Source: Patescibacteria group bacterium
Lineage (GTDB): Bacteria > Patescibacteriota > Patescibacteriia > Magasanikbacterales > GWA2-37-8
Direction: 5' to 3'
NCBI GenBank assembly: GCA_004321885.1
Contig: SCQK01000007.1
Coordinates: 128,001-192,000 of the forward strand
DNA length: 64,000 bases
How positions within the stretch are numbered: the first letter of the stretch is position 1; each line of letters opens with the position of its first letter. The translations under genes were made by a program, and so were the position numbers. Shown piece after piece: positions 3,139 through 62,003 of the stretch. The notes beneath the pieces are model-generated. The model saw only the letters and a list, made by a program, of their open reading frames with translations. It was not told the DNA's origin and did not search any database.

Positions 3139-3216
3139 AGAGGAAAAAATTAATGACTAAGATAGAGATATGATACACCTTGAACAAAAAACGGGCAATA
3201 GCAAATACCGAGCGCG

Positions 3217-3246
3217 TTGACATCAGCCCTTTTTTTAGGGTATTAT
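3217..3246 (+). promoter_or_regulatory. promoter TTGACA-18-TATTAT directly upstream of the tRNA cluster and tsaD
   Basis: ttgaca at 3217-3222 and tattat at 3241-3246; the tRNA 5' end (3256) is about 10 nt downstream. Confidence 0.5.
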
Positions 3247-3286
3247 TAAGCCAATGTCAGGGTAGCTCAGTTGGTAAGAGCACAGG

Positions 3287-3404
3287 ATTCACCCTCCCAC
3301 CAAAATGGCTGGGTAGCTCAGTTGGTAAGAGCACGGGATTCATAACCCCGAGGTCGGCAGTTCGATTCTGCCCCCAGTCACGATTGTTTGGTGGGAGGGT
3401 GAAT
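3287..3404 (+). repeat. 18-bp perfect inverted repeats (ATTCACCCTCCCACCAAA / TTTGGTGGGAGGGTGAAT) bracketing the inner tRNA inside the anticodon loop of the outer tRNA
   Basis: 3287-3304 is the exact reverse complement of 3387-3404. Confidence 0.9.
3307..3380 (+). tRNA. complete tRNA(CAU), elongator Met or Ile2 type
   Basis: GGCTGGG-TA-GCTC-AGTTGGTAA-GAGC-A-CGGGA-TTCATAA-CCCCG-AGGTC-GGCAG-TTCGATT-CTGCC-CCCAGTC-A. The acceptor stem has one G-U pair. There is no 1-72 mismatch, so this is not an initiator. Confidence 0.8.
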
Positions 3405-3445
3405 AACCCTGAGGTCGAGGGTTCGACTCCCTCCCCTGACACTAT

Positions 3446-4529
3446 GCTTCTGTTAGGCATAGAGTCATCTTGCGACGATACTTCAGTGGCCCTGGTCGCC
3501 TGCGGCGAACGGGGCTGTTTTGTGGTTGCCGAAAAAACCGCTTCGCAAACCGCGCTCCATAAAAAATACGGGGGCGTGGTGCCGGAAATAGCCGGGCGGG
3601 CGCACGCGGAAAAAATCGTGCCCCTGATTGAGGCGGTTCTGCGAGGAAAAAAGCCGGATGTTATCGCCGTAACCGCCGGACCCGGATTGATTACCGGTTT
3701 GCTGGTTGGCGTGGAAGCGGCGCGCGTTTTGTCATACGCGTGGAATGTGCCGCTATTGGCGGTAAATCATATTGAAGGGCACATCTATTCCGTGGAATTG
3801 GAAAACGAAAAAATCAAGTTCCCCGCTCTCGCGCTTATTGCCAGCGGTGGTCATACCGAGCTGATTTTTATGAAAAACCACGGCCAGCACAAACTGCTTG
3901 GCGCCACGCGCGACGACGCGGCCGGCGAATGTTTTGACAAGGTCGCCAAACTGCTCGGTCTCCCCTACCCGGGCGGTCCGGAAATTTCTCGGCTGGCGAT
4001 TGGCGGCGACCCGGGCGCCATAAAATTTCCGCGGCCGATGATAGAAAGCGATAATTACGACTTCAGTTTTGCCGGATTAAAAACCGCGGCGCTGTATTGG
4101 TTAAGGGATAATGTCATTGCGAGGCCTGAAAGGCCGAAGCAATCCCCCACAATCAAGCAAGGGATTGCTTCGCTTCGTTCCACTTCGCTCGCAATGACAA
4201 TGAATGATTTCTGCGCCAGTTTTGAGCAAGCGATAGTAGACGTCTTGGTCGCGAAAACTCTGAAAGCGGCCAGACAATACAAACCGAAAACCGTTATTCT
4301 TGCTGGCGGGGTTTCGGCGAACAAGAAACTTCGCTCTGCGCTTGAAAAGGCAATAAAAACTCTCGCTCCAATTACCAATTTCCAATTACCAATTTCCAAT
4401 TATTGTATGGACAACGCGGCCATGCTCGCCGTGGCCGGATATTATCGCGCGAAGAAAAAAAATTTCACTGATTGGAAAAAAATCCAAGCTGACCCGAATT
4501 GGACGATTTCTGGATTCCCCCGTACTTAG
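3446..4529 (+). CDS. tsaD: tRNA N6-adenosine threonylcarbamoyltransferase TsaD (Kae1/TsaD family)
   Basis: MLLLGIESSCDDTSVALV...AVNHIEGHIY...GGVSAN. The start is at 3446, not the track's 3180, which would run through the tRNAs. It carries two in-frame repeat insertions (4112-4199 and 4368-4402), and its last codons and stop lie inside repeat 4512-4543. Confidence 0.9.
4112..4199. repeat. family C long palindromic element (TGTCATTGCGAGGCCTGAAAGGCCGAAGCAATCCC...GGGATTGCTTCG...GCAATGACA) inserted in-frame in tsaD
   Basis: A near-identical copy lies at 27761-27838, and a half copy at 59138-59165. Confidence 0.85.
4368..4402. repeat. family B heptamer array (CCAATT[A/T])5, the complement of (GGAAATT)n, in-frame in tsaD; encodes ITNFQLPISNY
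   Basis: Direct heptamer tandem array; the same unit is present at 26432, 28424, 28866 and 59164. Confidence 0.85.
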
Positions 4530-8656: not shown

Positions 8657-11137
8657 CTAACGCATCTTGGCGCCAAACTTTTCTTCCAAAATTTTCCTCG
8701 CTTTCTCGCACGCCGCGTCCACCTCGGCCGAGGTCAGGGTTTTTTCCGCGTCCCCGTAGGTCAAGTGGTAGGCCATACTTTTGGAATCCGCGGCCAACTC
8801 ATTGCCCTCGTAAACATCAAACAACTCAACTTTTTTTAGCAAGACATCGGCGCCTTTGAGAGCGTCCAAAATTTCACCGTGAGCCGTTTCTTTCTTCACC
8901 GTGAAAGCAATATCACGCTCCGATTCCGGATAAACCGGCACCGGCGCGTAGGCGGATTTTGAACGAAAAATTTTTTCCGACAGTTTGGTCAAATTTATCC
9001 GCAAGACACCCACCCGTTTGTCCAAGCCGTAATTTGCCCCGACCGACGGATTTAATTCGCAAACAACTCCGACCATTGCGCCGCCATGGGAAAACAAAGA
9101 TAGCCGCGTCGGATGCTCCCAAGGCAAAACCTTATCTATTTTCGCCAGTTCAAATTGCCTGCCCAAAGACGCAAACACAACCTCCAGCGCGCGCCGCGCT
9201 TCCCAATAACCAGCATTGGTTTTTTTGTCAACGCAAACCGCGGTCAACCAAGTATCCTGATGCGGCAAGAGCTGACTGCTGTTTTTAGCCGCGCGCGGAC
9301 CGGATTCTTCGGACATAAACACCTGCCCGGTTTCAAAAATTTTCACCGAGGAATAACGCTCCAGATTGGCGGCCAGATTATCCAATAAATTCGGCAATAA
9401 ATTGCGGCGCAAATACGGTTTTTCTTTGGACAACGGATTATCCAGTTCAATATATTTGGCCATATCATCGCCCAAATTTTTTATCTGCGCTTCGCTGACA
9501 AATGAATAATTGTAGACCTCGCTGTAGCCCAACTCTCTCACGAGTGTTTCGCCGGCTTTCCTTTCCAAAACACGCAAACGATTGGCTTCAGACGGCGCCA
9601 CTGAAAAAGCAGGCAGAGACGGCGGAATATTGTTGAAACCGTAAAAGCGCGCCACTTCTTCCACCAAATCCTCGGCCGAAGAGATGTCTTTGGTCGCGCG
9701 CCAGGTGGGCGCCAATACCGACAAAACATCTTTTTTCGTTTTAACCACAAAACCCAACCGTTCCAAAATTTTGATGGTTTCTTTTTTGTTCAATTCCACG
9801 CCCAGCCGCTTGGCCGCGAAGGCTAAAGGCAATTCAATAGGCCCGCGCTTGGATTTGAAGTCCGCCGCGTCAGCGATATTGCTCGCCACGCGGCTGGCCG
9901 GACACAATTCCAACGTCAGCTGAACCGCGCGGCGCAGAGCCAGTTCGGCTAGATTCGGGTCCAACGACTTTTCAAAACGCGCCGATGACTCGGTGCGCAG
10001 ACCCAATTTGCCGGCGGTTTTGCGAATCGAGCCGGCGTCAAAATTGGCTGATTCAAAAATAATGGTTGAGGTGCTGTCGGTAACGCCGCTGTTTAACCCG
10101 CCCATCACCCCGGCAATCGCCACCGGTTCTTTTTCGTCGGCGATCACAAGCATGCTTGAATACAATTTGTGTTCAGTGCCGTCAAGGGTCGTGAACTTTT
10201 CTCCTTCTTTGGCCGGCCGCACCACAATCTTTTTTTCCTTGAAACGCGCCGCGTCAAACGCGTGCATGGGCTGTCCCAAATCCAGCATCACGTAATTGGT
10301 AATATCAACGACGTTGTTTATGGGCCGCACGCCGGCCGCGAGCAATCGCTTTTTCAGCCAGCCCGGCGATGATTTGATGTCCACTCCTTCTATGGCCGCG
10401 GCCATGTAGCGCGGACACAGCTTTTTGCCTGTCCTCACACCAAAATCTTTGGTGTGGGGGTCTTTCACTTCCACGCGCAAACTGATTTTTTTGCCTCCGC
10501 CTCGGGCGGATATTTTGGGCGGGGTATAACCACCAAATTCTTTACGATAAAGCGCCGCTACTTCGCGGGCGATGCCGTAGTGGCCCCACAAGTCAGGCCG
10601 ATGCGACAAAGATTTGTTGTCCACTTCCAGCACCGCGTCGTCCAAACCCAAAGCGACGGAGAGCGGCCTGCCGACCTGCGCCTTGACGCCGGTCAAATCA
10701 ATTATTTCTTTTTCTTCGCGCAAGGGAAACATTTCTTCCAAACCGATTTCCGTGGCCGAACAAATCATGCCCTGCGAATCCACGCCGCGAATGGCGGCCG
10801 GTTGTAATTCCACCGGCTCCCCGGCTCCGTGCCAGCGCACCCTGGCGCCCGCTTTGGCCAGGGCCACCAGCATTTTTTCGCGCACGTTACTACCGCCGCA
10901 AACGATTTTTAATTTCTTTTCGCCCACGTCAACCACGCAAACTTTTAATTTGTCAGCGTTGGGGTGTTTCTCCACTTTCAGCACTTTGCCCACCACAATA
11001 TTTTCCAAACTTTTTTCCTGCCGCTCCACTTTCTCCACTTCCACCACGCTCATTTTCAGTTTCTCAGCCACATCTTCTGGCGTCACCGAATCGGGCAAAC
11101 GCACGTAATCTTTTAACCACTTATATGAAATCAACAT
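8657..11137 (-). CDS. pheT: phenylalanine--tRNA ligase beta subunit
   Basis: MLISYKWLKDY start; B3/4 and B5 region motifs; 826 aa. Confidence 0.92.
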   Translation of the reverse strand: MLISYKWLKDYVRLPDSVTPEDVAEKLKMSVVEVEKVERQEKSLENIVVGKVLKVEKHPNADKLKVCVVDVGEKKLKIVCGGSNVREKMLVALAKAGARVRWHGAGEPVELQPAAIRGVDSQGMICSATEIGLEEMFPLREEKEIIDLTGVKAQVGRPLSVALGLDDAVLEVDNKSLSHRPDLWGHYGIAREVAALYRKEFGGYTPPKISARGGGKKISLRVEVKDPHTKDFGVRTGKKLCPRYMAAAIEGVDIKSSPGWLKKRLLAAGVRPINNVVDITNYVMLDLGQPMHAFDAARFKEKKIVVRPAKEGEKFTTLDGTEHKLYSSMLVIADEKEPVAIAGVMGGLNSGVTDSTSTIIFESANFDAGSIRKTAGKLGLRTESSARFEKSLDPNLAELALRRAVQLTLELCPASRVASNIADAADFKSKRGPIELPLAFAAKRLGVELNKKETIKILERLGFVVKTKKDVLSVLAPTWRATKDISSAEDLVEEVARFYGFNNIPPSLPAFSVAPSEANRLRVLERKAGETLVRELGYSEVYNYSFVSEAQIKNLGDDMAKYIELDNPLSKEKPYLRRNLLPNLLDNLAANLERYSSVKIFETGQVFMSEESGPRAAKNSSQLLPHQDTWLTAVCVDKKTNAGYWEARRALEVVFASLGRQFELAKIDKVLPWEHPTRLSLFSHGGAMVGVVCELNPSVGANYGLDKRVGVLRINLTKLSEKIFRSKSAYAPVPVYPESERDIAFTVKKETAHGEILDALKGADVLLKKVELFDVYEGNELAADSKSMAYHLTYGDAEKTLTSAEVDAACEKARKILEEKFGAKMR

Positions 11138-17074: not shown

Positions 17075-17509
17075 ATGCCAACAAAATTTTACAACAAACC
17101 GATTCTTAAAAAAATCAGGAGCAAACTTCGTAATGAGATGACAAGGGGAGAAAAAATTTTGTGGTCAAAATTGCGAAGAAAAAATTTAGAATTCAAATTC
17201 CGCAGACAATACGGAATAGGAAATTACGTTCTTGATTTTTACTGTGTAGAATTGAAACTGGCGATTGAAATTGACGGGCTTTCGCACCACAGCGAGAAAG
17301 CGTTTGAAGAGGATTGCAAACGACAAAAATATTTGGAATCGTTGGGAATAACTGTAATGAGATACAACAGCGAAGATGTTTTTAAAAAATTGGAGCAGGT
17401 GGCCGAGCAAATTTATCAGACGTGTCAGAACTTAAACGCGAAATTGCCTACCCCCACCTCGCCTCCCCCTTATAAAGGGGGAGAAAGTCGGCGATTTCTC
17501 TCCCCTTGA
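17075..17509 (+). CDS. DUF559-type endonuclease-domain protein (Vsr/restriction-endonuclease-like fold)
   Basis: GEKILWSKLRRKNLEFKFRRQYGIGNYVLDFYCVELKLAIEIDG is the hallmark of DUF559. The C-terminus reads through family A repeats. Confidence 0.7.
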   Translation: MPTKFYNKPILKKIRSKLRNEMTRGEKILWSKLRRKNLEFKFRRQYGIGNYVLDFYCVELKLAIEIDGLSHHSEKAFEEDCKRQKYLESLGITVMRYNSEDVFKKLEQVAEQIYQTCQNLNAKLPTPTSPPPYKGGESRRFLSP

Positions 17510-34383: not shown

Positions 34384-34386
34384 GCG

Positions 34387-34460
34387 TGCACGCATCTGGA
34401 CTCGGACCAGAGACCTCTGTCGTGTGAGGACAGCGCTCTAACCAACTGAGCTATGCGTGC
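34387..34460 (-). tRNA. tRNA-Val (anticodon CAC)
   Basis: Reverse complement GCACGCA-TA-GCTC-AGTTGGTTA-GAGC-G-CTGTC-CTCACAC-GACAG-AGGTC-TCTGG-TCCGAGT-CCAGA-TGCGTGC-A. Confidence 0.85.
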
Positions 34461-37460: not shown

Positions 37461-37931
37461 ATGAAATTAATTGTCGGTCTGGGAAATCCGGGAAAAGAAT
37501 ACGAAGGCACGCGGCATAACGTGGGATTTTTTTGCGTTGATAAATTAAAGGAGGCGCTGGCCGGCGCGAAAATAATTTTTGCCAAGCCGGATAAATTTAT
37601 GAACAACTCGGGCCCGGCCGTGGCCAAAATTTTGCGCTACCATAAAATAAAACCGAGCGACCTGCTGGTGATTCACGACGACAAAGACATTCCACTCGGC
37701 GAATACAAAATCCAGACCGGACGCGGCTCGGCCGGGCACAAGGGCGCGCAGTCTATCATTGACGCTTTGGACACGAAAGATTTCACGCGCCTGCGCGTCG
37801 GAATCGCGCCCACGGATAAAGAAATAAAAAACACGAGCGATTTTGTGCTGAAAAAATTTAGCAAAAAAGAAAAAGAAATAATCAATCAAGTTAGTAATGA
37901 AATAGTTGAACGGATAAAATCTCAAATATGA
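37461..37931 (+). CDS. pth: peptidyl-tRNA hydrolase
   Basis: MKLIVGLGNPGKEYEGTRHNVGF signature. Confidence 0.92.
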   Translation: MKLIVGLGNPGKEYEGTRHNVGFFCVDKLKEALAGAKIIFAKPDKFMNNSGPAVAKILRYHKIKPSDLLVIHDDKDIPLGEYKIQTGRGSAGHKGAQSIIDALDTKDFTRLRVGIAPTDKEIKNTSDFVLKKFSKKEKEIINQVSNEIVERIKSQI

Positions 37932-39010
37932 ACTATCGCGCGGCGCTGGCCCATTTCCCGAAAATTACGTACGGAAGGTACAAAAAAATTCTGGACCTTT
38001 TTTCGGATTTGAAAAATTTGTGGCAGGCGGAAATGGAAGAACTGACGCAAGCCGGCCTGGAAGAAAACATCGCGCACGAATTTTTGCTCTGGCGCGAATC
38101 CAACCCGGCCGGCTCCATTTTGGAACGGATGAAAAAAGAAAAAATTAAAACCGTGTCTTTGGGCGACCCGGCTTACCCGGCTTTGCTCGCCGAAATAAAC
38201 GACCCGCCCATGACTTTGTTTTATCGCGGAGTTTTGGAAGCGGACAACGGCCCGGCCGTGGCCGTGGTGGGCACGCGCAATTGCACCATGTACGGCCAGC
38301 AGGTCTGCGTGGAAATCAGCGGCGCCTTGGCGCGGCAAGGCATTACAGTGGTCAGCGGACTGGCGCTGGGGCTGGACGGCGCGGCCCACCAGGCGGCCTT
38401 GGAAAACAAAGGCAGGACCATTGCCGTGCTCGGCTCGGGCATTGACGACGCGCATATTTATCCTTCGGCTCATCGCCCATTGGCGCAAAAAATCATCGCC
38501 GAGGGCGGGGCCGTTGTTTCCGAATATCCGCCGGGCTTTTTGGCCGCGCCCTATTCTTTTCCGGCGCGCAACCGCATCATCGCCGGGCTGTCGCTGGGCA
38601 CGTTGGTGGTGGAAGCCCCCGAGGAATCCGGCGCGCTCATTACCGCGCGCTGCGCCCTTGATTACAACCGCGAAGTTTTTGCCGTGCCGCACAATATTAC
38701 TTCCGCAAACGGCGTAGGGTGCAACAACCAATTAAAACTCGGGGCCAAACTCGTTACCTCGGCCGACGATATATTGGAGGCTTTAAATCTAAAAAGTCTG
38801 GCCCAAACCGTGCTTTTGAAAAAAGAACCGGCCGCGTCAAACCCGACCGAAGAAGCGGTGCTGGCACAGCTGTCGCGCGAACCCAAACACATAGACGCCG
38901 TGGCCAAGGAAACAGGCATTGACAGCCGGCTAATAAGTAGTACACTAACGCTGTTGGAAATAAAAGGAGTGGTAAAAAATCTGGGGGGAATGAATTATGT
39001 TGTAAGTTAA
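37928..39010 (+). CDS. dprA: DNA-processing protein DprA (Smf)
   Basis: Rossmann-like VVSGLALGLDGAAHQAAL...VVEAPEESGALITA motifs. Confidence 0.88.
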   Translation: MNYRAALAHFPKITYGRYKKILDLFSDLKNLWQAEMEELTQAGLEENIAHEFLLWRESNPAGSILERMKKEKIKTVSLGDPAYPALLAEINDPPMTLFYRGVLEADNGPAVAVVGTRNCTMYGQQVCVEISGALARQGITVVSGLALGLDGAAHQAALENKGRTIAVLGSGIDDAHIYPSAHRPLAQKIIAEGGAVVSEYPPGFLAAPYSFPARNRIIAGLSLGTLVVEAPEESGALITARCALDYNREVFAVPHNITSANGVGCNNQLKLGAKLVTSADDILEALNLKSLAQTVLLKKEPAASNPTEEAVLAQLSREPKHIDAVAKETGIDSRLISSTLTLLEIKGVVKNLGGMNYVVS

Positions 39011-59856: not shown

Positions 59857-60282
59857 ATGTCAAACCGCCATTTAGCCAGAAGCATAGCCATGCAAGCTCT
59901 GTTTGAATGGGATTTCCGCGGGCAACCGCCGGAATTTTTGGAACAGACAATAGCGCGCGACCTGGAAGAATTCGGTCCGGGCCTTGATGAACAAAAATTC
60001 GCGGAAAAAATCACCGAGGAGGTGCAAAAACACATTGGCGAAATAGACGCCCTGATAACAAAATACGCGCCCCAGTGGCCGATTGAGCAAATCACCGTGA
60101 TTGACAGAAACGTTCTGCGCATCGGCATCTATGAATTAAAATTCGGCGAAGGCGTGCCCCCGAAAGTGGCCATCAACGAAGCGATTGAACTGGCGAAAAG
60201 TTTCGGCGGCCCGTCTTCGGGCAAATTTGTCAACGGCGTGCTGGGCGCGATTTACAACGACATGGAGAAGCCGAAAGAATAA
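59857..60282 (+). CDS. nusB: transcription antitermination factor NusB
   Basis: [14 protein letters not shown]...NGVLGAI pattern. Confidence 0.85.
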
Positions 60283-60290
60283 TTATATAT

Positions 60291-61061
60291 ATGACAAAAG
60301 CAATGACACTGCCTGAAGTGAAGGAAAAAGATTTTCCAGCTTTGGAAGAAAAACTGGGCATCAAATTCAAACACCGCGATTATTTGGCGCAGGCGTTCGT
60401 GCACCGCTCTTATTTGAACGAGCACCATGATTTTCCCCTGCATCACAACGAACGGCTGGAATTTTTAGGCGACGCGGTGCTGGAACTGGTGGTGACGGAA
60501 TTTTTGTTCAAGGAATATTCCAACCCCGAGGGCGAGCTGACCAACTGGCGCGCGGCCCTGGTCAACGCCAAAATGCTGGCCAGCATCGCCTATGAAATCG
60601 GCATGGAATCATATTTGTTTTTAAGTCACGGCGAAGCCAAAGACGCCGGCACCAAGGCGCGTGATTTTATCATGGCCAACACTATAGAAGCGCTTATTGG
60701 CGCGATTTACCTGGATAGGGGCTATGACGTAACCAGGCAATTCGTGGCGCGCTGGGTACTCGTCAAATTGCCGCATGTTTTGGAAAACGGATTATACATG
60801 GACGCCAAGAGCCGCTTCCAGGAATCGGCCCAGGAGCTGGTGGGCGTTACTCCGTCTTATCGCGTTTTGAAAGAAGAAGGGCCGGACCACAATAAATTTT
60901 TCAAGGTGGGCATTTACTTAAACGGCGAACTCGTGGCCGCGGGCGAAGGCACCAGCAAGCAGGAAGCCCAAACCGAAGCCGCCGAAGCCGCGCTCAAAAT
61001 CAAGGGCTGGAAGGGGCCGAAAATAAACGTGATGAAAAAAGAAGAAGGAGACGCGATTTGA
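60291..61061 (+). CDS. rnc: ribonuclease III
   Basis: ERLEFLGDAVLELVVTEFLF RNase III signature and a dsRBD C-terminus. Confidence 0.93.
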   Translation: MTKAMTLPEVKEKDFPALEEKLGIKFKHRDYLAQAFVHRSYLNEHHDFPLHHNERLEFLGDAVLELVVTEFLFKEYSNPEGELTNWRAALVNAKMLASIAYEIGMESYLFLSHGEAKDAGTKARDFIMANTIEALIGAIYLDRGYDVTRQFVARWVLVKLPHVLENGLYMDAKSRFQESAQELVGVTPSYRVLKEEGPDHNKFFKVGIYLNGELVAAGEGTSKQEAQTEAAEAALKIKGWKGPKINVMKKEEGDAI

Positions 61062-61078
61062 ATTTTCTTTACAAATCC

Positions 61079-61151
61079 GCGCCGCTAGCTCAGCTGGTAG
61101 AGCAGAGGACTCTTAATCCTAAGGTCCAGGGTTCGATCCCCTGGCGGCGCA
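61079..61151 (+). tRNA. tRNA-Lys (anticodon CTT)
   Basis: GCGCCGC-TA-GCTC-AGCTGGTA-GAGC-A-GAGGA-CTCTTAA-TCCTA-AGGTC-CAGGG-TTCGATC-CCCTG-GCGGCGC-A. Confidence 0.85.
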
Positions 61152-61157
61152 CAATTC

Positions 61158-61229
61158 GCCCTCGTCGTTCAATGGATAGGACACCAGGCTTCGAACCTGG
61201 TAATGTGGGTTCGATTCCTGCCGAGGGCA
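61158..61229 (+). tRNA. tRNA-Arg (anticodon TCG)
   Basis: GCCCTCG-TC-GTTC-AATGGATAG-GACA-CCAGG-CTTCGAA-CCTGG-TAAT-GTGGG-TTCGATT-CCTGC-CGAGGGC-A. Confidence 0.85.
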
Positions 61230-62003
61230 CTAAACCGTCACACTCTCTACTTTTATTCTTCCTTCCAAATAATTTTTATCATCTTTGAACGCGGCCGTTG
61301 CTTCATCCGCCAATTCGCCACTGCCCAACACAATTATTACAAACGGATTTTCTGTTGTAAATAATTCTCCAAATCCGTGATGGCCGAAAGCGATATTTAC
61401 CGCCACTTTTAATTCTTCGGTCGCGTATTCAGCCGGCAAATACGCGCGGCTGATAACAAAACCCATGGGCAAACCATCGGCAGACGGATTAAATTTTCCC
61501 GTGCCGTCAAAATACACCACACGCGCGCTGTGAAATTCGGCCGGCCGCGCCATTTCTGTCAAAGCCACATGGCGGTAGCGCGCCCCGAGTTTGTCGGCTA
61601 ATTTTTTCGCCCAATCAATCGCCAAATTATCCATTTGCTCGGATGTCGGTTCGGTTCCTTGGTTGTCGCGCTTGTAAGCGAGCCCGGCCGCGCCGCAACC
61701 TCCGTGGCTTGTGATTTCGCTCACGCCCAAATTTTTCATCAGCCCGGCTGTTTTTTTCAGCCGCTCGGCTTCGGAGCTCGCCGGAAACAAAATGCCAGAA
61801 CCGGCCATGGGGAATTTTGTCAGGCCGCCCATTTTTTTGTGCGCCACGCCTTCATCCATGCAGACAACGCACTCGTGCGTGTTCACAAAACATTTGCCCC
61901 ACTCCGGCAAATTTTTTAAATATTTTTCCGTTCCCTGTTCGTAAATTTTTCGCATTACTTCTTGTCCATTGCTCCATTCAGCTTCCAGATTCTCATTATG
62001 CAT
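61230..62003 (-). CDS. hypothetical protein with a Cys/His-rich putative metal site
   Basis: HECVVCMDEG ... SHGGCGAAG about 60 aa apart, with spacing reminiscent of beta-carbonic-anhydrase-type zinc ligands but not diagnostic. Confidence 0.4.
   Translation of the reverse strand: MHNENLEAEWSNGQEVMRKIYEQGTEKYLKNLPEWGKCFVNTHECVVCMDEGVAHKKMGGLTKFPMAGSGILFPASSEAERLKKTAGLMKNLGVSEITSHGGCGAAGLAYKRDNQGTEPTSEQMDNLAIDWAKKLADKLGARYRHVALTEMARPAEFHSARVVYFDGTGKFNPSADGLPMGFVISRAYLPAEYATEELKVAVNIAFGHHGFGELFTTENPFVIIVLGSGELADEATAAFKDDKNYLEGRIKVESVTV

What the first reader, a model, noticed from the sequence alone, without database searches (positions are those of the whole stretch)
3256..3441. A tRNA gene split in its anticodon loop by a 112-nt palindromic insert that carries a second complete tRNA
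The two halves of a canonical tRNA(CAU) are 112 nt apart. Exon 1 (3256-3290) holds the acceptor 5' arm, the D arm, the anticodon stem and TTC. Exon 2 (3403-3441) holds ATAA, the anticodon 3' stem, the T arm and the acceptor 3' arm. Their 7-bp acceptor arms (GTCAGGG/CCCTGAC) are perfectly complementary. The intervening DNA has 18-bp perfect inverted repeats (3287-3304 and 3387-3404) that extend from the anticodon loop, and these arms enclose a second, intact 74-nt tRNA(CAU) gene (3307-3380). The outer and inner tRNAs are paralogous: their 5' halves differ at a single base. Bacterial tRNA introns are normally group I ribozymes longer than 200 nt; a 112-nt helix-bounded insert holding another tRNA does not fit that class. 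There are three possible explanations. First, a novel intron or split-tRNA arrangement, conceptually like the Nanoarchaeum split tRNAs joined by complementary leaders. Second, a tRNA-carrying MITE-like element that has inserted into a tRNA anticodon loop. Third, a recent disruption that left a pseudo-tRNA. The intact arms on both sides argue against old decay. The cluster sits behind a good TTGACA-18-TATTAT promoter and directly upstream of tsaD, whose product modifies A37 of ANN-decoding tRNAs, which include tRNA(CAU).
Basis: seen in the sequence. Interest (0 to 1): 0.9.

Follow-up and report, generated by a model that had tools for sequence, protein, structure and literature searches.

The report
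tRNA gene nested inside another tRNA
In a Candidate Phyla Radiation (CPR) bacterium, a complete methionine-type tRNA gene sits inside the anticodon loop of a second, otherwise intact copy of the same tRNA; it is most likely a gene-replacement scar rather than a new kind of intron, but only RNA data can settle that.

Summary
Two halves of a clean elongator tRNA(CAU) (3256-3290 and 3403-3441) are separated by 112 nt. The insert holds a perfect 18-bp inverted repeat and an intact 74-nt tRNA(CAU) (3307-3380).

- **Organism:** a Candidatus Magasanikbacteria (CPR/Patescibacteria) genome.
- **Outer tRNA:** it is the resident gene. Relatives carry it uninterrupted, 1-4 nt upstream of the tsaD start codon.
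- **Inner tRNA:** it is 97% identical to the tsaD-linked tRNA of another lineage and brings about 10 nt of that gene's native leader.
- **Right helix arm:** it has no match in the few native trailers examined and reads as an inverted copy of the left junction.
- **Known RNA classes:** no group I core, known ribozyme or bulge-helix-bulge motif is present.
- **Recurrence:** a second nested case (insert in the D-loop) turned up in an unrelated CPR contig. Several contigs carry decayed 5' or 3' remnants beside an intact copy.

Best reading: one tRNA copy was inserted into the other. One promoter drives both, the inner tRNA is the working one, and the outer halves are not rejoined. The outer acceptor/T-arm probably still marks the RNase Z cut that makes the leaderless tsaD mRNA. 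True splicing is not excluded (about 0.1).

The parts
3217..3246 (+). Sigma-70-type promoter, TTGACA - 18 nt - TATTAT. It is the only promoter-like site upstream of the whole nested unit. The predicted transcription start is 2-3 nt before outer G1.
   Evidence: 11 of 12 matches; sequence.
3256..3290 (+). Outer tRNA(CAU) 5' half: acceptor 5' strand GTCAGGG, D arm, anticodon-stem 5' strand and loop bases TTC.
   Evidence: It is orthologous to the intact tsaD-linked tRNAs of L209, L210 and L211 (93-95% identity).
3287..3304 (+). Left helix arm, ATTCACCCTCCCACCAAA. The first 4-5 nt are outer anticodon-loop bases. The last 9 nt are the start of the native-type leader of the inner tRNA.
   Evidence: repeat I1; CCACCAAAA matches the L210 native leader, p about 0.004; TTCACCCTCCCACCAAAAT matches the L154 left junction, p about 1e-4.
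3296..3306 (+). Leader-like segment CCCACCAAAAT immediately 5' of the inner tRNA. It is homologous to the leaders of tsaD-linked tRNA(CAU) genes in relatives.
3307..3380 (+). Inner, intact elongator-type tRNA(CAU), 74 nt, with no encoded CCA. It is the likely working gene.
   Evidence: 66.1 bits. It is 97% identical to the tRNA directly upstream of tsaD in L205.
3381..3386 (+). Short trailer of the inner tRNA (CGATTG). It may be a remnant of the donor's tRNA-tsaD junction, but the similarity is weak.
   Evidence: compare L205 CTAATATGTT and L009 CTATATGTTT; inference.
3387..3404 (+). Right helix arm, TTTGGTGGGAGGGTGAAT: an exact inverted copy of 3287-3304. No native tRNA trailer among the relatives I inspected (L205, L210) contains its complement.
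3403..3441 (+). Outer tRNA(CAU) 3' half: loop bases ATAA, anticodon-stem 3' strand, T arm, acceptor 3' strand CCCTGAC and discriminator A3441.
   Evidence: an orphan T arm outside any called tRNA.
3444..4529 (+). tsaD (t6A37 synthesis). Its ATG is 2 nt after the outer tRNA end, there is no Shine-Dalgarno sequence, and it is probably translated from a leaderless mRNA whose 5' end is made by tRNA 3' processing.
   Evidence: TsaD, PF00814; leaderless pattern across the clade.

Best explanation
This is an insertional duplication, that is, a gene replacement in place. The resident elongator tRNA(CAU) gene normally sits directly in front of tsaD in this group of Magasanikbacteria. It has been split at anticodon position 34/35 by a roughly 96-nt copy of the orthologous gene from another lineage. 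That copy brought about 10 nt of its native leader and a few nt of trailer. An inverted copy of the left junction closes the insert into an 18-bp stem.

The DNA origin is most simply a microhomology or template-switch (fold-back) event. The junctions share only 1-5 nt of homology.

How it works is inferred, not shown:
1. The single promoter at 3217-3246 makes one transcript, which folds as a cloverleaf inside a cloverleaf.
2. RNase P and RNase Z release the inner tRNA, which is the working tRNA. The long stem may first be opened by RNase III, which the genome encodes.
3. The two outer halves are not rejoined and do not decode.
4. The stem keeps the outer acceptor stem and T arm together. RNase Z can therefore still cut after A3441 and create the nearly leaderless tsaD mRNA. 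That dependence would explain why only an insertion preserving the outer fold could survive at this site.
For: **Shown**
- The outer tRNA is the syntenic resident gene. Intact orthologues lie 1-4 nt from the tsaD ATG in L003, L006, L009, L010, L205 and L210, and are 93-95% identical in L209-L211.
- The inner tRNA is 97% identical to the L205 tsaD-linked tRNA. Its leader CCACCAAAA matches the L210 native leader.
- The right arm is an exact inverted copy of exon end plus filler plus leader. It is not present in the native trailers I inspected.
- There is no second promoter inside the unit.
- No group I, ribozyme or other Rfam family is found apart from the inner tRNA.
- This tRNA-tsaD junction is a rearrangement hot spot. 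L010 has a decayed 5' fragment. L208 and L211 have a 125-nt element with an 18-nt duplicate of the tRNA 3' end. L005 and L215 have about 100-nt inserts.
- A second full nested case exists (L108, insert in the D-loop, left junction repeated in a contig from a second sample, L213), and 5'-fragment-plus-intact-tRNA cases exist in L154, L156 and L112.
- tsaD looks leaderless across the clade. In 33 of 55 loci a -10-like box ends 5-11 nt before the ATG, against 12.6% in controls. Only 3 of 55 have a Shine-Dalgarno-like motif.
- RNase III and DprA (natural transformation) genes are in the window.

**Inferred**
- The processing steps, the non-joining of the outer halves, and the template-switch origin.
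Against: - No RNA data of any kind were available.
- Both outer halves are flawless and the 18-bp stem is perfect. That fits a very recent event, but it fits selection on the RNA equally well.
- The insert ends of the window and L108 look alike (CCCTCC(C)ACC; GGTGGGRGG..TGAA, p about 0.03-0.14). The window and L154 left junctions are clearly homologous (p about 1e-4). This hints at a discrete recurring element rather than independent accidents.
- Outer and inner tRNAs share a genome-specific D-loop and a 24-nt identical block. This suggests they have coexisted long enough for gene conversion, which sits less easily with 'very recent'.
- L108 is not next to tsaD, so the tsaD-processing argument cannot explain why its outer halves are retained.
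- The rest of the genome could not be read. I do not know whether another elongator tRNA(CAU) exists.
Confidence: 0.55

Rival explanations
1. It is a true protein-dependent intron. The 112-nt insert is cut out of the outer pre-tRNA and the halves are ligated, so both tRNAs mature from one transcript. One possible route is a staggered cut in the stem. The 3290|3403 junction corresponds to a 2-nt 3' overhang, which is RNase III geometry.
For: - Both halves are perfect and the joined product is a clean tRNA.
- The stem extends the anticodon stem and the nested fold is strongly favoured.
- Junction option 3290|3403 lies across the helix with a 2-nt 3' stagger (read).
- RNase III is encoded in the window.
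- A second nested case exists whose outer tRNA is also restored by removing the insert.
Against: - No bacterial tRNA splicing endonuclease/ligase pathway of this kind is known. Bacterial tRNA introns are self-splicing (PMC4390854, PMC13011429).
- There is no bulge-helix-bulge motif. The only bulge is 3405-3407 on the 3' strand, and the 3' junction is not in it.
- The junctions sit inside a perfect helix in the window but at the unpaired base of the helix in L108, so the two cases share no geometry.
- The outer tRNA is redundant with the inner one.
- Other contigs show the outer-type fragment decaying while the intact copy persists.
- RNase III products (3'-OH and 5'-P) are not RtcB substrates (established enzymology).
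Confidence: 0.1
2. It is a discrete mobile or recurrent element: a short palindrome-ended cassette that carries its own tRNA(CAU). It inserts into resident tRNA(CAU) genes at various positions and compensates for the damage it causes.
For: - Two full cases sit at different positions: the anticodon loop here and the D-loop in L108 and L213.
- The insert ends are similar.
- The L154 left junction is homologous to the window's (p about 1e-4).
- The logic parallels integrative elements that restore the tRNA they interrupt.
Against: - There is no target-site duplication and no transposase or integrase within several kb.
- There is no other copy of the arms in 64 kb.
- The inner half of the left arm is native tRNA leader, not an element terminus.
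- Each inner tRNA resembles local or orthologous tRNAs rather than the other inner tRNA.
- The window-to-L108 left-arm similarity is not significant on its own (p = 0.14).
Confidence: 0.2
3. It is an assembly or amplification artefact: two strain alleles of the same tsaD-linked tRNA chimerically joined.
For: - Both tRNA types natively occupy the same locus in different lineages, so a mixed population could supply both.
- The window's own contig could not be found in an independent assembly.
Against: - The junctions share only 1-5 nt, far below assembler k-mer sizes.
- An assembler cannot invent a perfect inverted copy that restores a cloverleaf.
- Three or four precise chimeric joins within 112 nt would be needed.
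- The analogous L108 left junction is reproduced in a contig from a second sample.
Confidence: 0.04

Closest known systems
Group I introns in bacterial tRNA anticodon loops, including the IA introns of Patescibacteria at 33/34 and 35/36 (PMC13011429)
   Same: It interrupts the anticodon loop of a bacterial tRNA in the same phylum, and it hides the host tRNA from ARAGORN and Rfam.
   Different: It is only 112 nt. There is no group I core (no Rfam match). There is no exon-terminal U and no intron-terminal G. Its interior is a complete tRNA rather than a ribozyme.
Archaeal bulge-helix-bulge (BHB) introns, the tRNA-Trp intron that encodes a box C/D RNA, and Nanoarchaeum split tRNAs (PMC4390854; the tRNA-Trp case is from my own knowledge)
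   Same: A helix forms between exon-proximal and insert sequence and extends the anticodon stem. The intervening RNA carries another functional RNA.
   Different: There is no second bulge, and the 3' junction lies in the helix rather than in a bulge. The organism is a bacterium with no known splicing endonuclease. The halves lie in cis on one transcript.
Partial tRNA duplications at integration sites of prophages and genomic islands (attL/attR)
   Same: A fragment of the old tRNA lies beside a functional copy supplied by incoming DNA. The tRNA gene is the target. The L208/L211 relatives show the classic direct 18-nt duplicate of the tRNA 3' end.
   Different: Here the flanks are inverted, not direct. 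The incoming piece is a whole tRNA of about 100 nt. There is no integrase and no cargo.
MITEs and other small palindromic insertion elements
   Same: It is short and non-coding, with 17-18-bp terminal inverted repeats.
   Different: There is no target-site duplication. There is a single copy in 64 kb. The termini are partly native leader sequence and partly host anticodon-loop sequence.
tRNA punctuation and tRNA-linked mRNA processing (mitochondrial punctuation model; bacterial tRNA-mRNA co-transcripts such as the tufB operon) - from established knowledge
   Same: A tRNA-shaped structure immediately 5' of a coding region can define the mRNA 5' end through RNase Z or RNase P cleavage.
   Different: Here the punctuation tRNA would be a split, non-decoding shell held together by an inserted stem. 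This is untested.
Template-switch (quasipalindrome) and microhomology-mediated break-induced replication rearrangements - from established knowledge
   Same: These events produce templated insertions with perfect inverted copies of nearby sequence and junctions of 1-5 nt microhomology.
   Different: This is a mutational mechanism, not a genetic system. It was not demonstrated here.

Membership tests
Functional bacterial tRNA (inner gene, 3307-3380) | Cloverleaf with conserved D-loop and T-loop nucleotides, scoring above the Rfam RF00005 gathering threshold. | tested here: met
   66.1 bits against a threshold of 29; ARAGORN tRNA-Met(cat); 97% identical to an orthologue in L205.
Functional bacterial tRNA (outer gene, halves joined) | A contiguous gene, or a demonstrated route that joins the halves. 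| tested here: not met
   It is not called in place, even with the ARAGORN intron option. It is called only after 112 nt are removed by hand. No joining route is known.
Initiator tRNA(CAU) | A 1:72 mismatch, three G:C pairs at the bottom of the anticodon stem, and A11:U24. | tested here: not met
   Both tRNAs have a paired G1-C72, C11-G24 and an A31.C39 mismatch. They are elongator-type. Whether they are Met or Ile2 was not resolved.
Group I intron | Conserved catalytic core (P3-P9) detectable with the Rfam intron model. | tested here: not met
   A permissive Rfam scan of 3150-3550 at E up to 10 finds only the inner tRNA.
Group I intron | Size of about 200 nt or more; U at the end of the 5' exon; G at the 3' end of the intron. 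| tested here: not met
   The insert is 112 nt. The exon ends in C or A. The insert ends in A.
Archaeal/eukaryal BHB intron | Two 3-nt bulges on opposite strands separated by a 4-bp helix, with both splice sites in the bulges. | tested here: not met
   There is one 3-nt bulge (3405-3407) on the 3' strand. The 5' junction is 4 bp away, but inside an unbroken 18-bp helix. The 3' junction is also in the helix.
Archaeal/eukaryal BHB intron | Presence of a splicing endonuclease (EndA) and an RtcB-type ligase. | not tested
   40 of the 50 long ORFs of the 64-kb window were scanned against Pfam and show neither. The other ten ORFs and the rest of the genome were not examined.
MITE | Terminal inverted repeats and small non-coding size. 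| tested here: met
   A 17-18-bp perfect inverted repeat and a 112-nt insert.
MITE | Target-site duplication flanking the repeats. | tested here: not met
   The flanks are CAGGA and TAACC (or GGATTC and ATAACC), with no direct repeat.
MITE | Multiple copies in the genome. | tested here: inconclusive
   No other copy of the arm at up to 3 mismatches above chance in 64 kb. The rest of the genome is unavailable. Related left junctions occur in L154 and possibly L108.
Integrase-mediated insertion into a tRNA gene | A direct repeat of the tRNA segment (att core) at both ends, and a recombinase gene nearby. | tested here: not met
   There is no direct repeat at the insert ends. The neighbours are an NHL-repeat protein, an HU-like protein, a membrane protein, tsaD and dnaE.
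Split tRNA (Nanoarchaeum type) | Halves encoded at separate loci and joined in trans through complementary leaders. | tested here: not met
   The halves are 112 nt apart behind one promoter.
RNase III substrate | About two turns of uninterrupted dsRNA, and RNase III present in the organism. | tested here: inconclusive
   The helix is 18 bp perfect plus a 4-bp coaxial anticodon stem across a 3-nt bulge. An rnc gene lies at 60291-61061. Cleavage was not testable.

The most novel reading that the evidence does not exclude
Bacteria of the Candidate Phyla Radiation possess a protein-dependent tRNA splicing route. A helix-bounded insert that itself carries a tRNA would be excised from the anticodon loop (here) or the D-loop (L108) by a double-strand-specific nuclease, and the halves religated. 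One transcript would then yield two mature tRNAs plus a leaderless tsaD mRNA.
Probability: 0.07. Interest if true: 0.95.

Novelty: new variant of a known kind. Interest (0 to 1): 0.55.

Why it matters
I found no description of a complete tRNA gene nested inside another tRNA gene in bacteria in four targeted searches of the held library.

- **If the scar reading is right:** it shows how tiny CPR genomes turn over an essential single-copy tRNA gene. A new copy lands inside the old one and takes over its promoter. It also warns that standard tRNA finders will miss such hosts.
- **A wider point that is testable at once:** in this clade tsaD, and at least one other gene (L154), starts 1-4 nt after a tRNA and lacks a ribosome-binding site. 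tRNA 3' processing probably creates leaderless mRNAs, a bacterial form of tRNA punctuation. That dependence constrains which insertions can survive.
- **If the outer tRNA is rejoined:** it would be the first protein-dependent tRNA intron in Bacteria.

Tried and rejected
- **Group I intron or known ribozyme:** Rfam at gathering and at permissive thresholds finds only the inner tRNA.
- **Bulge-helix-bulge motif:** checked by hand on the fold; absent.
- **Multi-copy element in the window:** the arm search is at chance level.
- **'All tRNAs here sit in processing stems':** the other six tRNAs have no enclosing helix, only ordinary terminators.
- **The window's own contig in the gene-position index:** not on record.
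- **Close relatives of this genome:** none. The next TsaD is 70% identical, so the age of the insertion could not be bracketed.
- **Spurious ORF calls over nested tRNAs:** a protein word search with the translated region found nothing.
- **N-terminal extensions of TsaD homologues:** uninformative.
- **Viral contig scans with two patterns:** nothing relevant.
- **Metagenome scan for two tRNA 5' halves fewer than 62 nt apart:** Most were coding repeats, so the true frequency of nesting is unknown.
- **Orphan T-arm scan of all fetched loci:** apart from a few orphan T arms in other fetched contigs that I did not follow up (for example L104, L125/L150, L148, L156, L201), the only clear orphan tRNA 3' halves next to an intact tRNA were the window and L108.
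- **Relatives of the L108 contig:** only a near-identical second sample (L213) kept the tRNA cluster.
- **Met versus Ile2 identity of the two tRNAs:** not resolved.

Full report
**1. The observation**

The region reads exactly as described.
- Positions 3256-3290 carry the acceptor 5' strand GTCAGGG, the D arm, the anticodon-stem 5' strand and TTC.
- Positions 3403-3441 carry ATAA, the anticodon-stem 3' strand, the T arm, CCCTGAC and a discriminator A.
- Between them are 112 nt with a perfect 18-bp inverted repeat (3287-3304 and 3387-3404).
- Inside the repeat is a complete tRNA(CAU) at 3307-3380. ARAGORN calls it, and Rfam scores it at 66.1 bits.

Neither program sees the outer tRNA in place. 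Joining 3290 to 3403 gives a textbook tRNA-Met(cat), called by ARAGORN as 75 nt (74 nt to the discriminator A3441). The junction can be shifted by one A.

As RNA, 3250-3445 folds into a cloverleaf within a cloverleaf: -91 kcal/mol, z = -6.5, with no shuffle as stable.

One detail of the finding is off. The two 5' halves differ at three positions (2, 4 and 28), and at one only from position 5 onward.

The promoter TTGACA - 18 nt - TATTAT at 3217-3246 is an 11-of-12 match and is the only one upstream. tsaD starts at 3444, 2 nt after the outer tRNA end.

**2. Organism and the resident gene**

TsaD homologues place the window in Candidatus Magasanikbacteria, within the CPR/Patescibacteria. The exact protein is known from one NCBI contig of 214.5 kb. 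The next closest is only 70% identical, so no close relative is available.

In many relatives an uninterrupted tRNA(CAU) lies upstream of tsaD. It ends 1-4 nt before the ATG in L003, L006, L009, L010, L205 and L210, and further away in L001, L005, L208, L209, L211 and L215.

The outer tRNA, once joined, is 93-95% identical to those of L209, L210 and L211 and has their GTCAGGG/CCCTGAC acceptor stem. The outer tRNA is therefore the resident, syntenic gene, interrupted only in this genome.

Both tRNAs are elongator-type: G1-C72, C11-G24, and an A31.C39 mismatch shared by the whole family. Whether they are Met or Ile2 was not resolved.

**3. Where the inner tRNA comes from**

The inner tRNA is 97% identical (two D-loop bases differ) to the tRNA that sits directly in front of tsaD in L205, L206 and L207, a lineage with the same tsaD-dnaE synteny.

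The 10-11 nt before it (CCCACCAAAAT) match the native leader of the L210 gene (GACCACCAAAAAT, p about 0.004). The few bases after it weakly resemble the tRNA-tsaD junction of relatives.

So the insert is a copy of the orthologous locus with stubs of its own flanks. The window encodes DprA, so uptake of foreign DNA is plausible.

The right arm, in contrast, is not present in the native trailers I inspected. It is an exact inverted copy of outer-loop bases ATTCA, plus a 5-nt filler, plus the leader. The junctions share only 1-5 nt.

This pattern is a templated insertion, then a fold-back copy, then a return to the original template at a short microhomology. It is what template-switch or microhomology-mediated replication events produce (established knowledge; inference here).

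One complication remains. Outer and inner tRNAs share a 24-nt identical block, including a D-loop variant (AGTTGGTAA) that the closest relatives lack. This hints at gene conversion and some period of coexistence.

**4. What it is not**

- No group I core and no known ribozyme or other family is detected, even at E up to 10.
- The insert is half the size of the smallest group I introns and lacks their boundary nucleotides.
- Known tRNA introns in Patescibacteria are group I, subgroup IA (PMC13011429). Bacterial tRNA introns in general are self-splicing (PMC4390854).
- The helix is not a bulge-helix-bulge motif. There is a single 3-nt bulge (3405-3407), and both junctions lie inside an unbroken helix.
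- There is no target-site duplication, no recombinase nearby and no further copy of the arms in 64 kb.
- The other six tRNAs in the window are not enclosed by stems.

**5. Is it a one-off?**

I scanned metagenome contigs for two tRNA 5' halves too close together to be tandem genes. It still returned the following.

- **L108: a second full nested case.** An outer tRNA(CAU) is interrupted in the D-loop by a stem of about 13 + 4 bp (one U.G pair, one bulge) that encloses an inner tRNA(CAU). The outer tRNA is called once the insert is removed. The contig is from a CPR bacterium. Its left junction is reproduced exactly in a contig from a second sample, L213.
- **L154, L156, L112 and the relative L010: partial cases.** Each carries a 5' fragment of a tRNA(CAU) just upstream of an intact one, with no 3' partner.
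- **Similarity of the junctions.** The L154 left junction (TTCACTTCCCACTAAAAT) is clearly homologous to the window's (TTCACCCTCCCACCAAAAT, p about 1e-4). The similarity to the L108 arms is marginal (p = 0.14 left, 0.03 right).

At the tRNA-tsaD junction itself:
- L208 and L211 carry a conserved 125-nt element in the T-loop, with an 18-nt direct duplicate of the tRNA 3' end next to tsaD.
- L005 and L215 carry other inserts of about 100 nt.

The picture is repeated insertion of new copies or elements into this small, highly transcribed gene. Old fragments decay on either side, and the window and L108 are the fresh state with both halves still present.

**6. Why the outer shell may still matter**

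Across 55 Patescibacteria tsaD loci, 33 have a -10-like hexamer ending 5-11 nt before the start codon (12.6% in controls). Only 3 have a Shine-Dalgarno-like motif. tsaD therefore looks like a leaderless gene in this clade.

Where a tRNA precedes it, there is neither a -10 box nor a ribosome-binding site, and the ATG follows the tRNA by 1-4 nt. The simplest reading is that RNase Z cleavage after the discriminator creates the translatable 5' end. The tRNAs lack encoded CCA, which is the RNase Z substrate class (established knowledge). L154 shows the same arrangement with a different gene.

RNase Z and RNase P need only the acceptor stem and T arm. An insertion in the anticodon loop that is closed by a stem leaves that module intact. 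An insertion that broke the module would silence tsaD. This gives a selective filter for the architecture seen here. It does not explain L108, which is followed by a terminator-like hairpin rather than by tsaD.

**7. Mechanism, with status**

Shown:
- The anatomy.
- Orthology of both tRNAs.
- A single promoter.
- Absence of known intron or ribozyme features.
- Recurrence elsewhere.
- The clade-wide leaderless pattern.
- An RNase III gene at 60291-61061.

Inferred:
- One transcript is made.
- The inner tRNA is released by RNase P and RNase Z, perhaps after RNase III opens the 18-bp stem.
- The outer halves are not rejoined.
- The outer acceptor/T-arm serves as the tsaD processing site.
- The insert arose by a template-switch event.

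**8. The splicing alternative**

With the 3290|3403 junction, the two cut sites lie across the helix with a 2-nt 3' overhang. That is the geometry of RNase III, whose products a classical RNA ligase could join. This is the most novel reading the data allow.

Against it:
- No such pathway is known in bacteria.
- The junction geometry differs in L108.
- The outer tRNA is redundant.
- Outer-type fragments decay elsewhere.

I give it about 0.1 as stated, and 0.07 for the full general form.

**9. Verdict**

The feature is genuine and unusual. It is most likely a recent tRNA gene replacement by nested insertion, at a locus where tRNA processing also defines an mRNA start. It is a new variant of disrupted tRNA genes rather than a demonstrated new system. 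It is worth an RNA-level check because the decisive experiment is simple and the unlikely outcome would be important.

Noticed in passing
L208:1029-1186 and L211:827-978 (relatives; not in the window): A conserved structured element of about 125 nt is inserted in the T-loop (56/57) of the tsaD-linked tRNA(CAU). An exact 18-nt duplicate of the tRNA 3' end is retained next to tsaD. The core is GAACGCCGGA..ATGTCCGCTCGCGCGGACGRTGAGGCGGTGGCTAACCCGAATC..GATGAGAGGTGAAGCC. An internal segment complementary to the T-loop co-varies with each host tRNA. There is no Rfam match.
   Followed up: partly
55 tsaD loci: 54 of L001-L060 plus L202; window 3442-3446: tsaD appears to be leaderless across this Patescibacteria clade. 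A -10-like box, often TGnTAnAAT, ends 5-11 nt before the ATG in 33 of 55 loci (control 12.6%), with almost no Shine-Dalgarno motifs. In tRNA-linked loci the ATG follows the tRNA by 1-4 nt, which suggests tRNA-punctuated leaderless mRNAs. L154 has the same layout with an unrelated small ORF.
   Followed up: partly
L010:2836-2920: A decayed tRNA(CAU) 5' fragment lies just upstream of the intact tsaD-linked tRNA. It has a hairpin-containing insertion of about 30 nt in its D-loop, at the same D-loop position as the L108 insert.
   Followed up: partly
L005:2903-3000; L215:1391-1500: Other GC-rich or palindromic spacers of about 100 nt lie between the tRNA(CAU) and tsaD in two relatives. They are unrelated to each other and to the window insert, so the junction is an insertion hot spot.
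   Followed up: no
window 3287 and 3407; 3338 and 3346; all orthologues: An A31.C39 mismatch at the bottom of the anticodon stem (GGATTCATAACC) is conserved in every tsaD-linked tRNA(CAU) of this family, including both the outer and the inner tRNA.
   Followed up: no
window 34386-34460 (-): ARAGORN calls tRNA-Val(CAC) here, but it does not reach the Rfam gathering score. Its T-loop reads TCCGAGT instead of the usual TTCRANY.
   Followed up: partly
window 59857-61230: nusB, rnc (RNase III) and then tRNA-Lys(CTT) and tRNA-Arg(TCG) follow one another with gaps of 8-18 nt, on the same strand. This looks like another mixed protein-tRNA transcription unit.
   Followed up: no
window 17075-17509 (+): A stand-alone DUF559/Vsr-like endonuclease gene. 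DprA (37928-39010) is also present, which is consistent with natural transformation.
   Followed up: no
L147:1096-1240 (+) and L149 (- strand; about 953-1100 in reverse-complement coordinates): Two different contigs share a conserved 36-nt tRNA-Thr 5' fragment (GCCTGGGTAGCTCAGTGGTAAGAAAATCTTGCCACT) about 35 nt upstream of an intact tRNA-Thr(GGT). L161 has two tandem 61-nt repeats, each starting with a tRNA-Phe 5' fragment, ahead of an intact tRNA-Phe. Partial 5' copies upstream of tRNAs are not rare in metagenomes.
   Followed up: no
L154 and L156 (- strand; positions about 645-700 and 10886-10945 in reverse-complement coordinates): The 5' fragments in these two unrelated contigs resemble each other (GGTTAGAGCGAGGGAYTT) more than they resemble their own downstream intact tRNAs. 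Each ends in a short-loop hairpin that mimics an anticodon stem. This is unexplained.
   Followed up: partly
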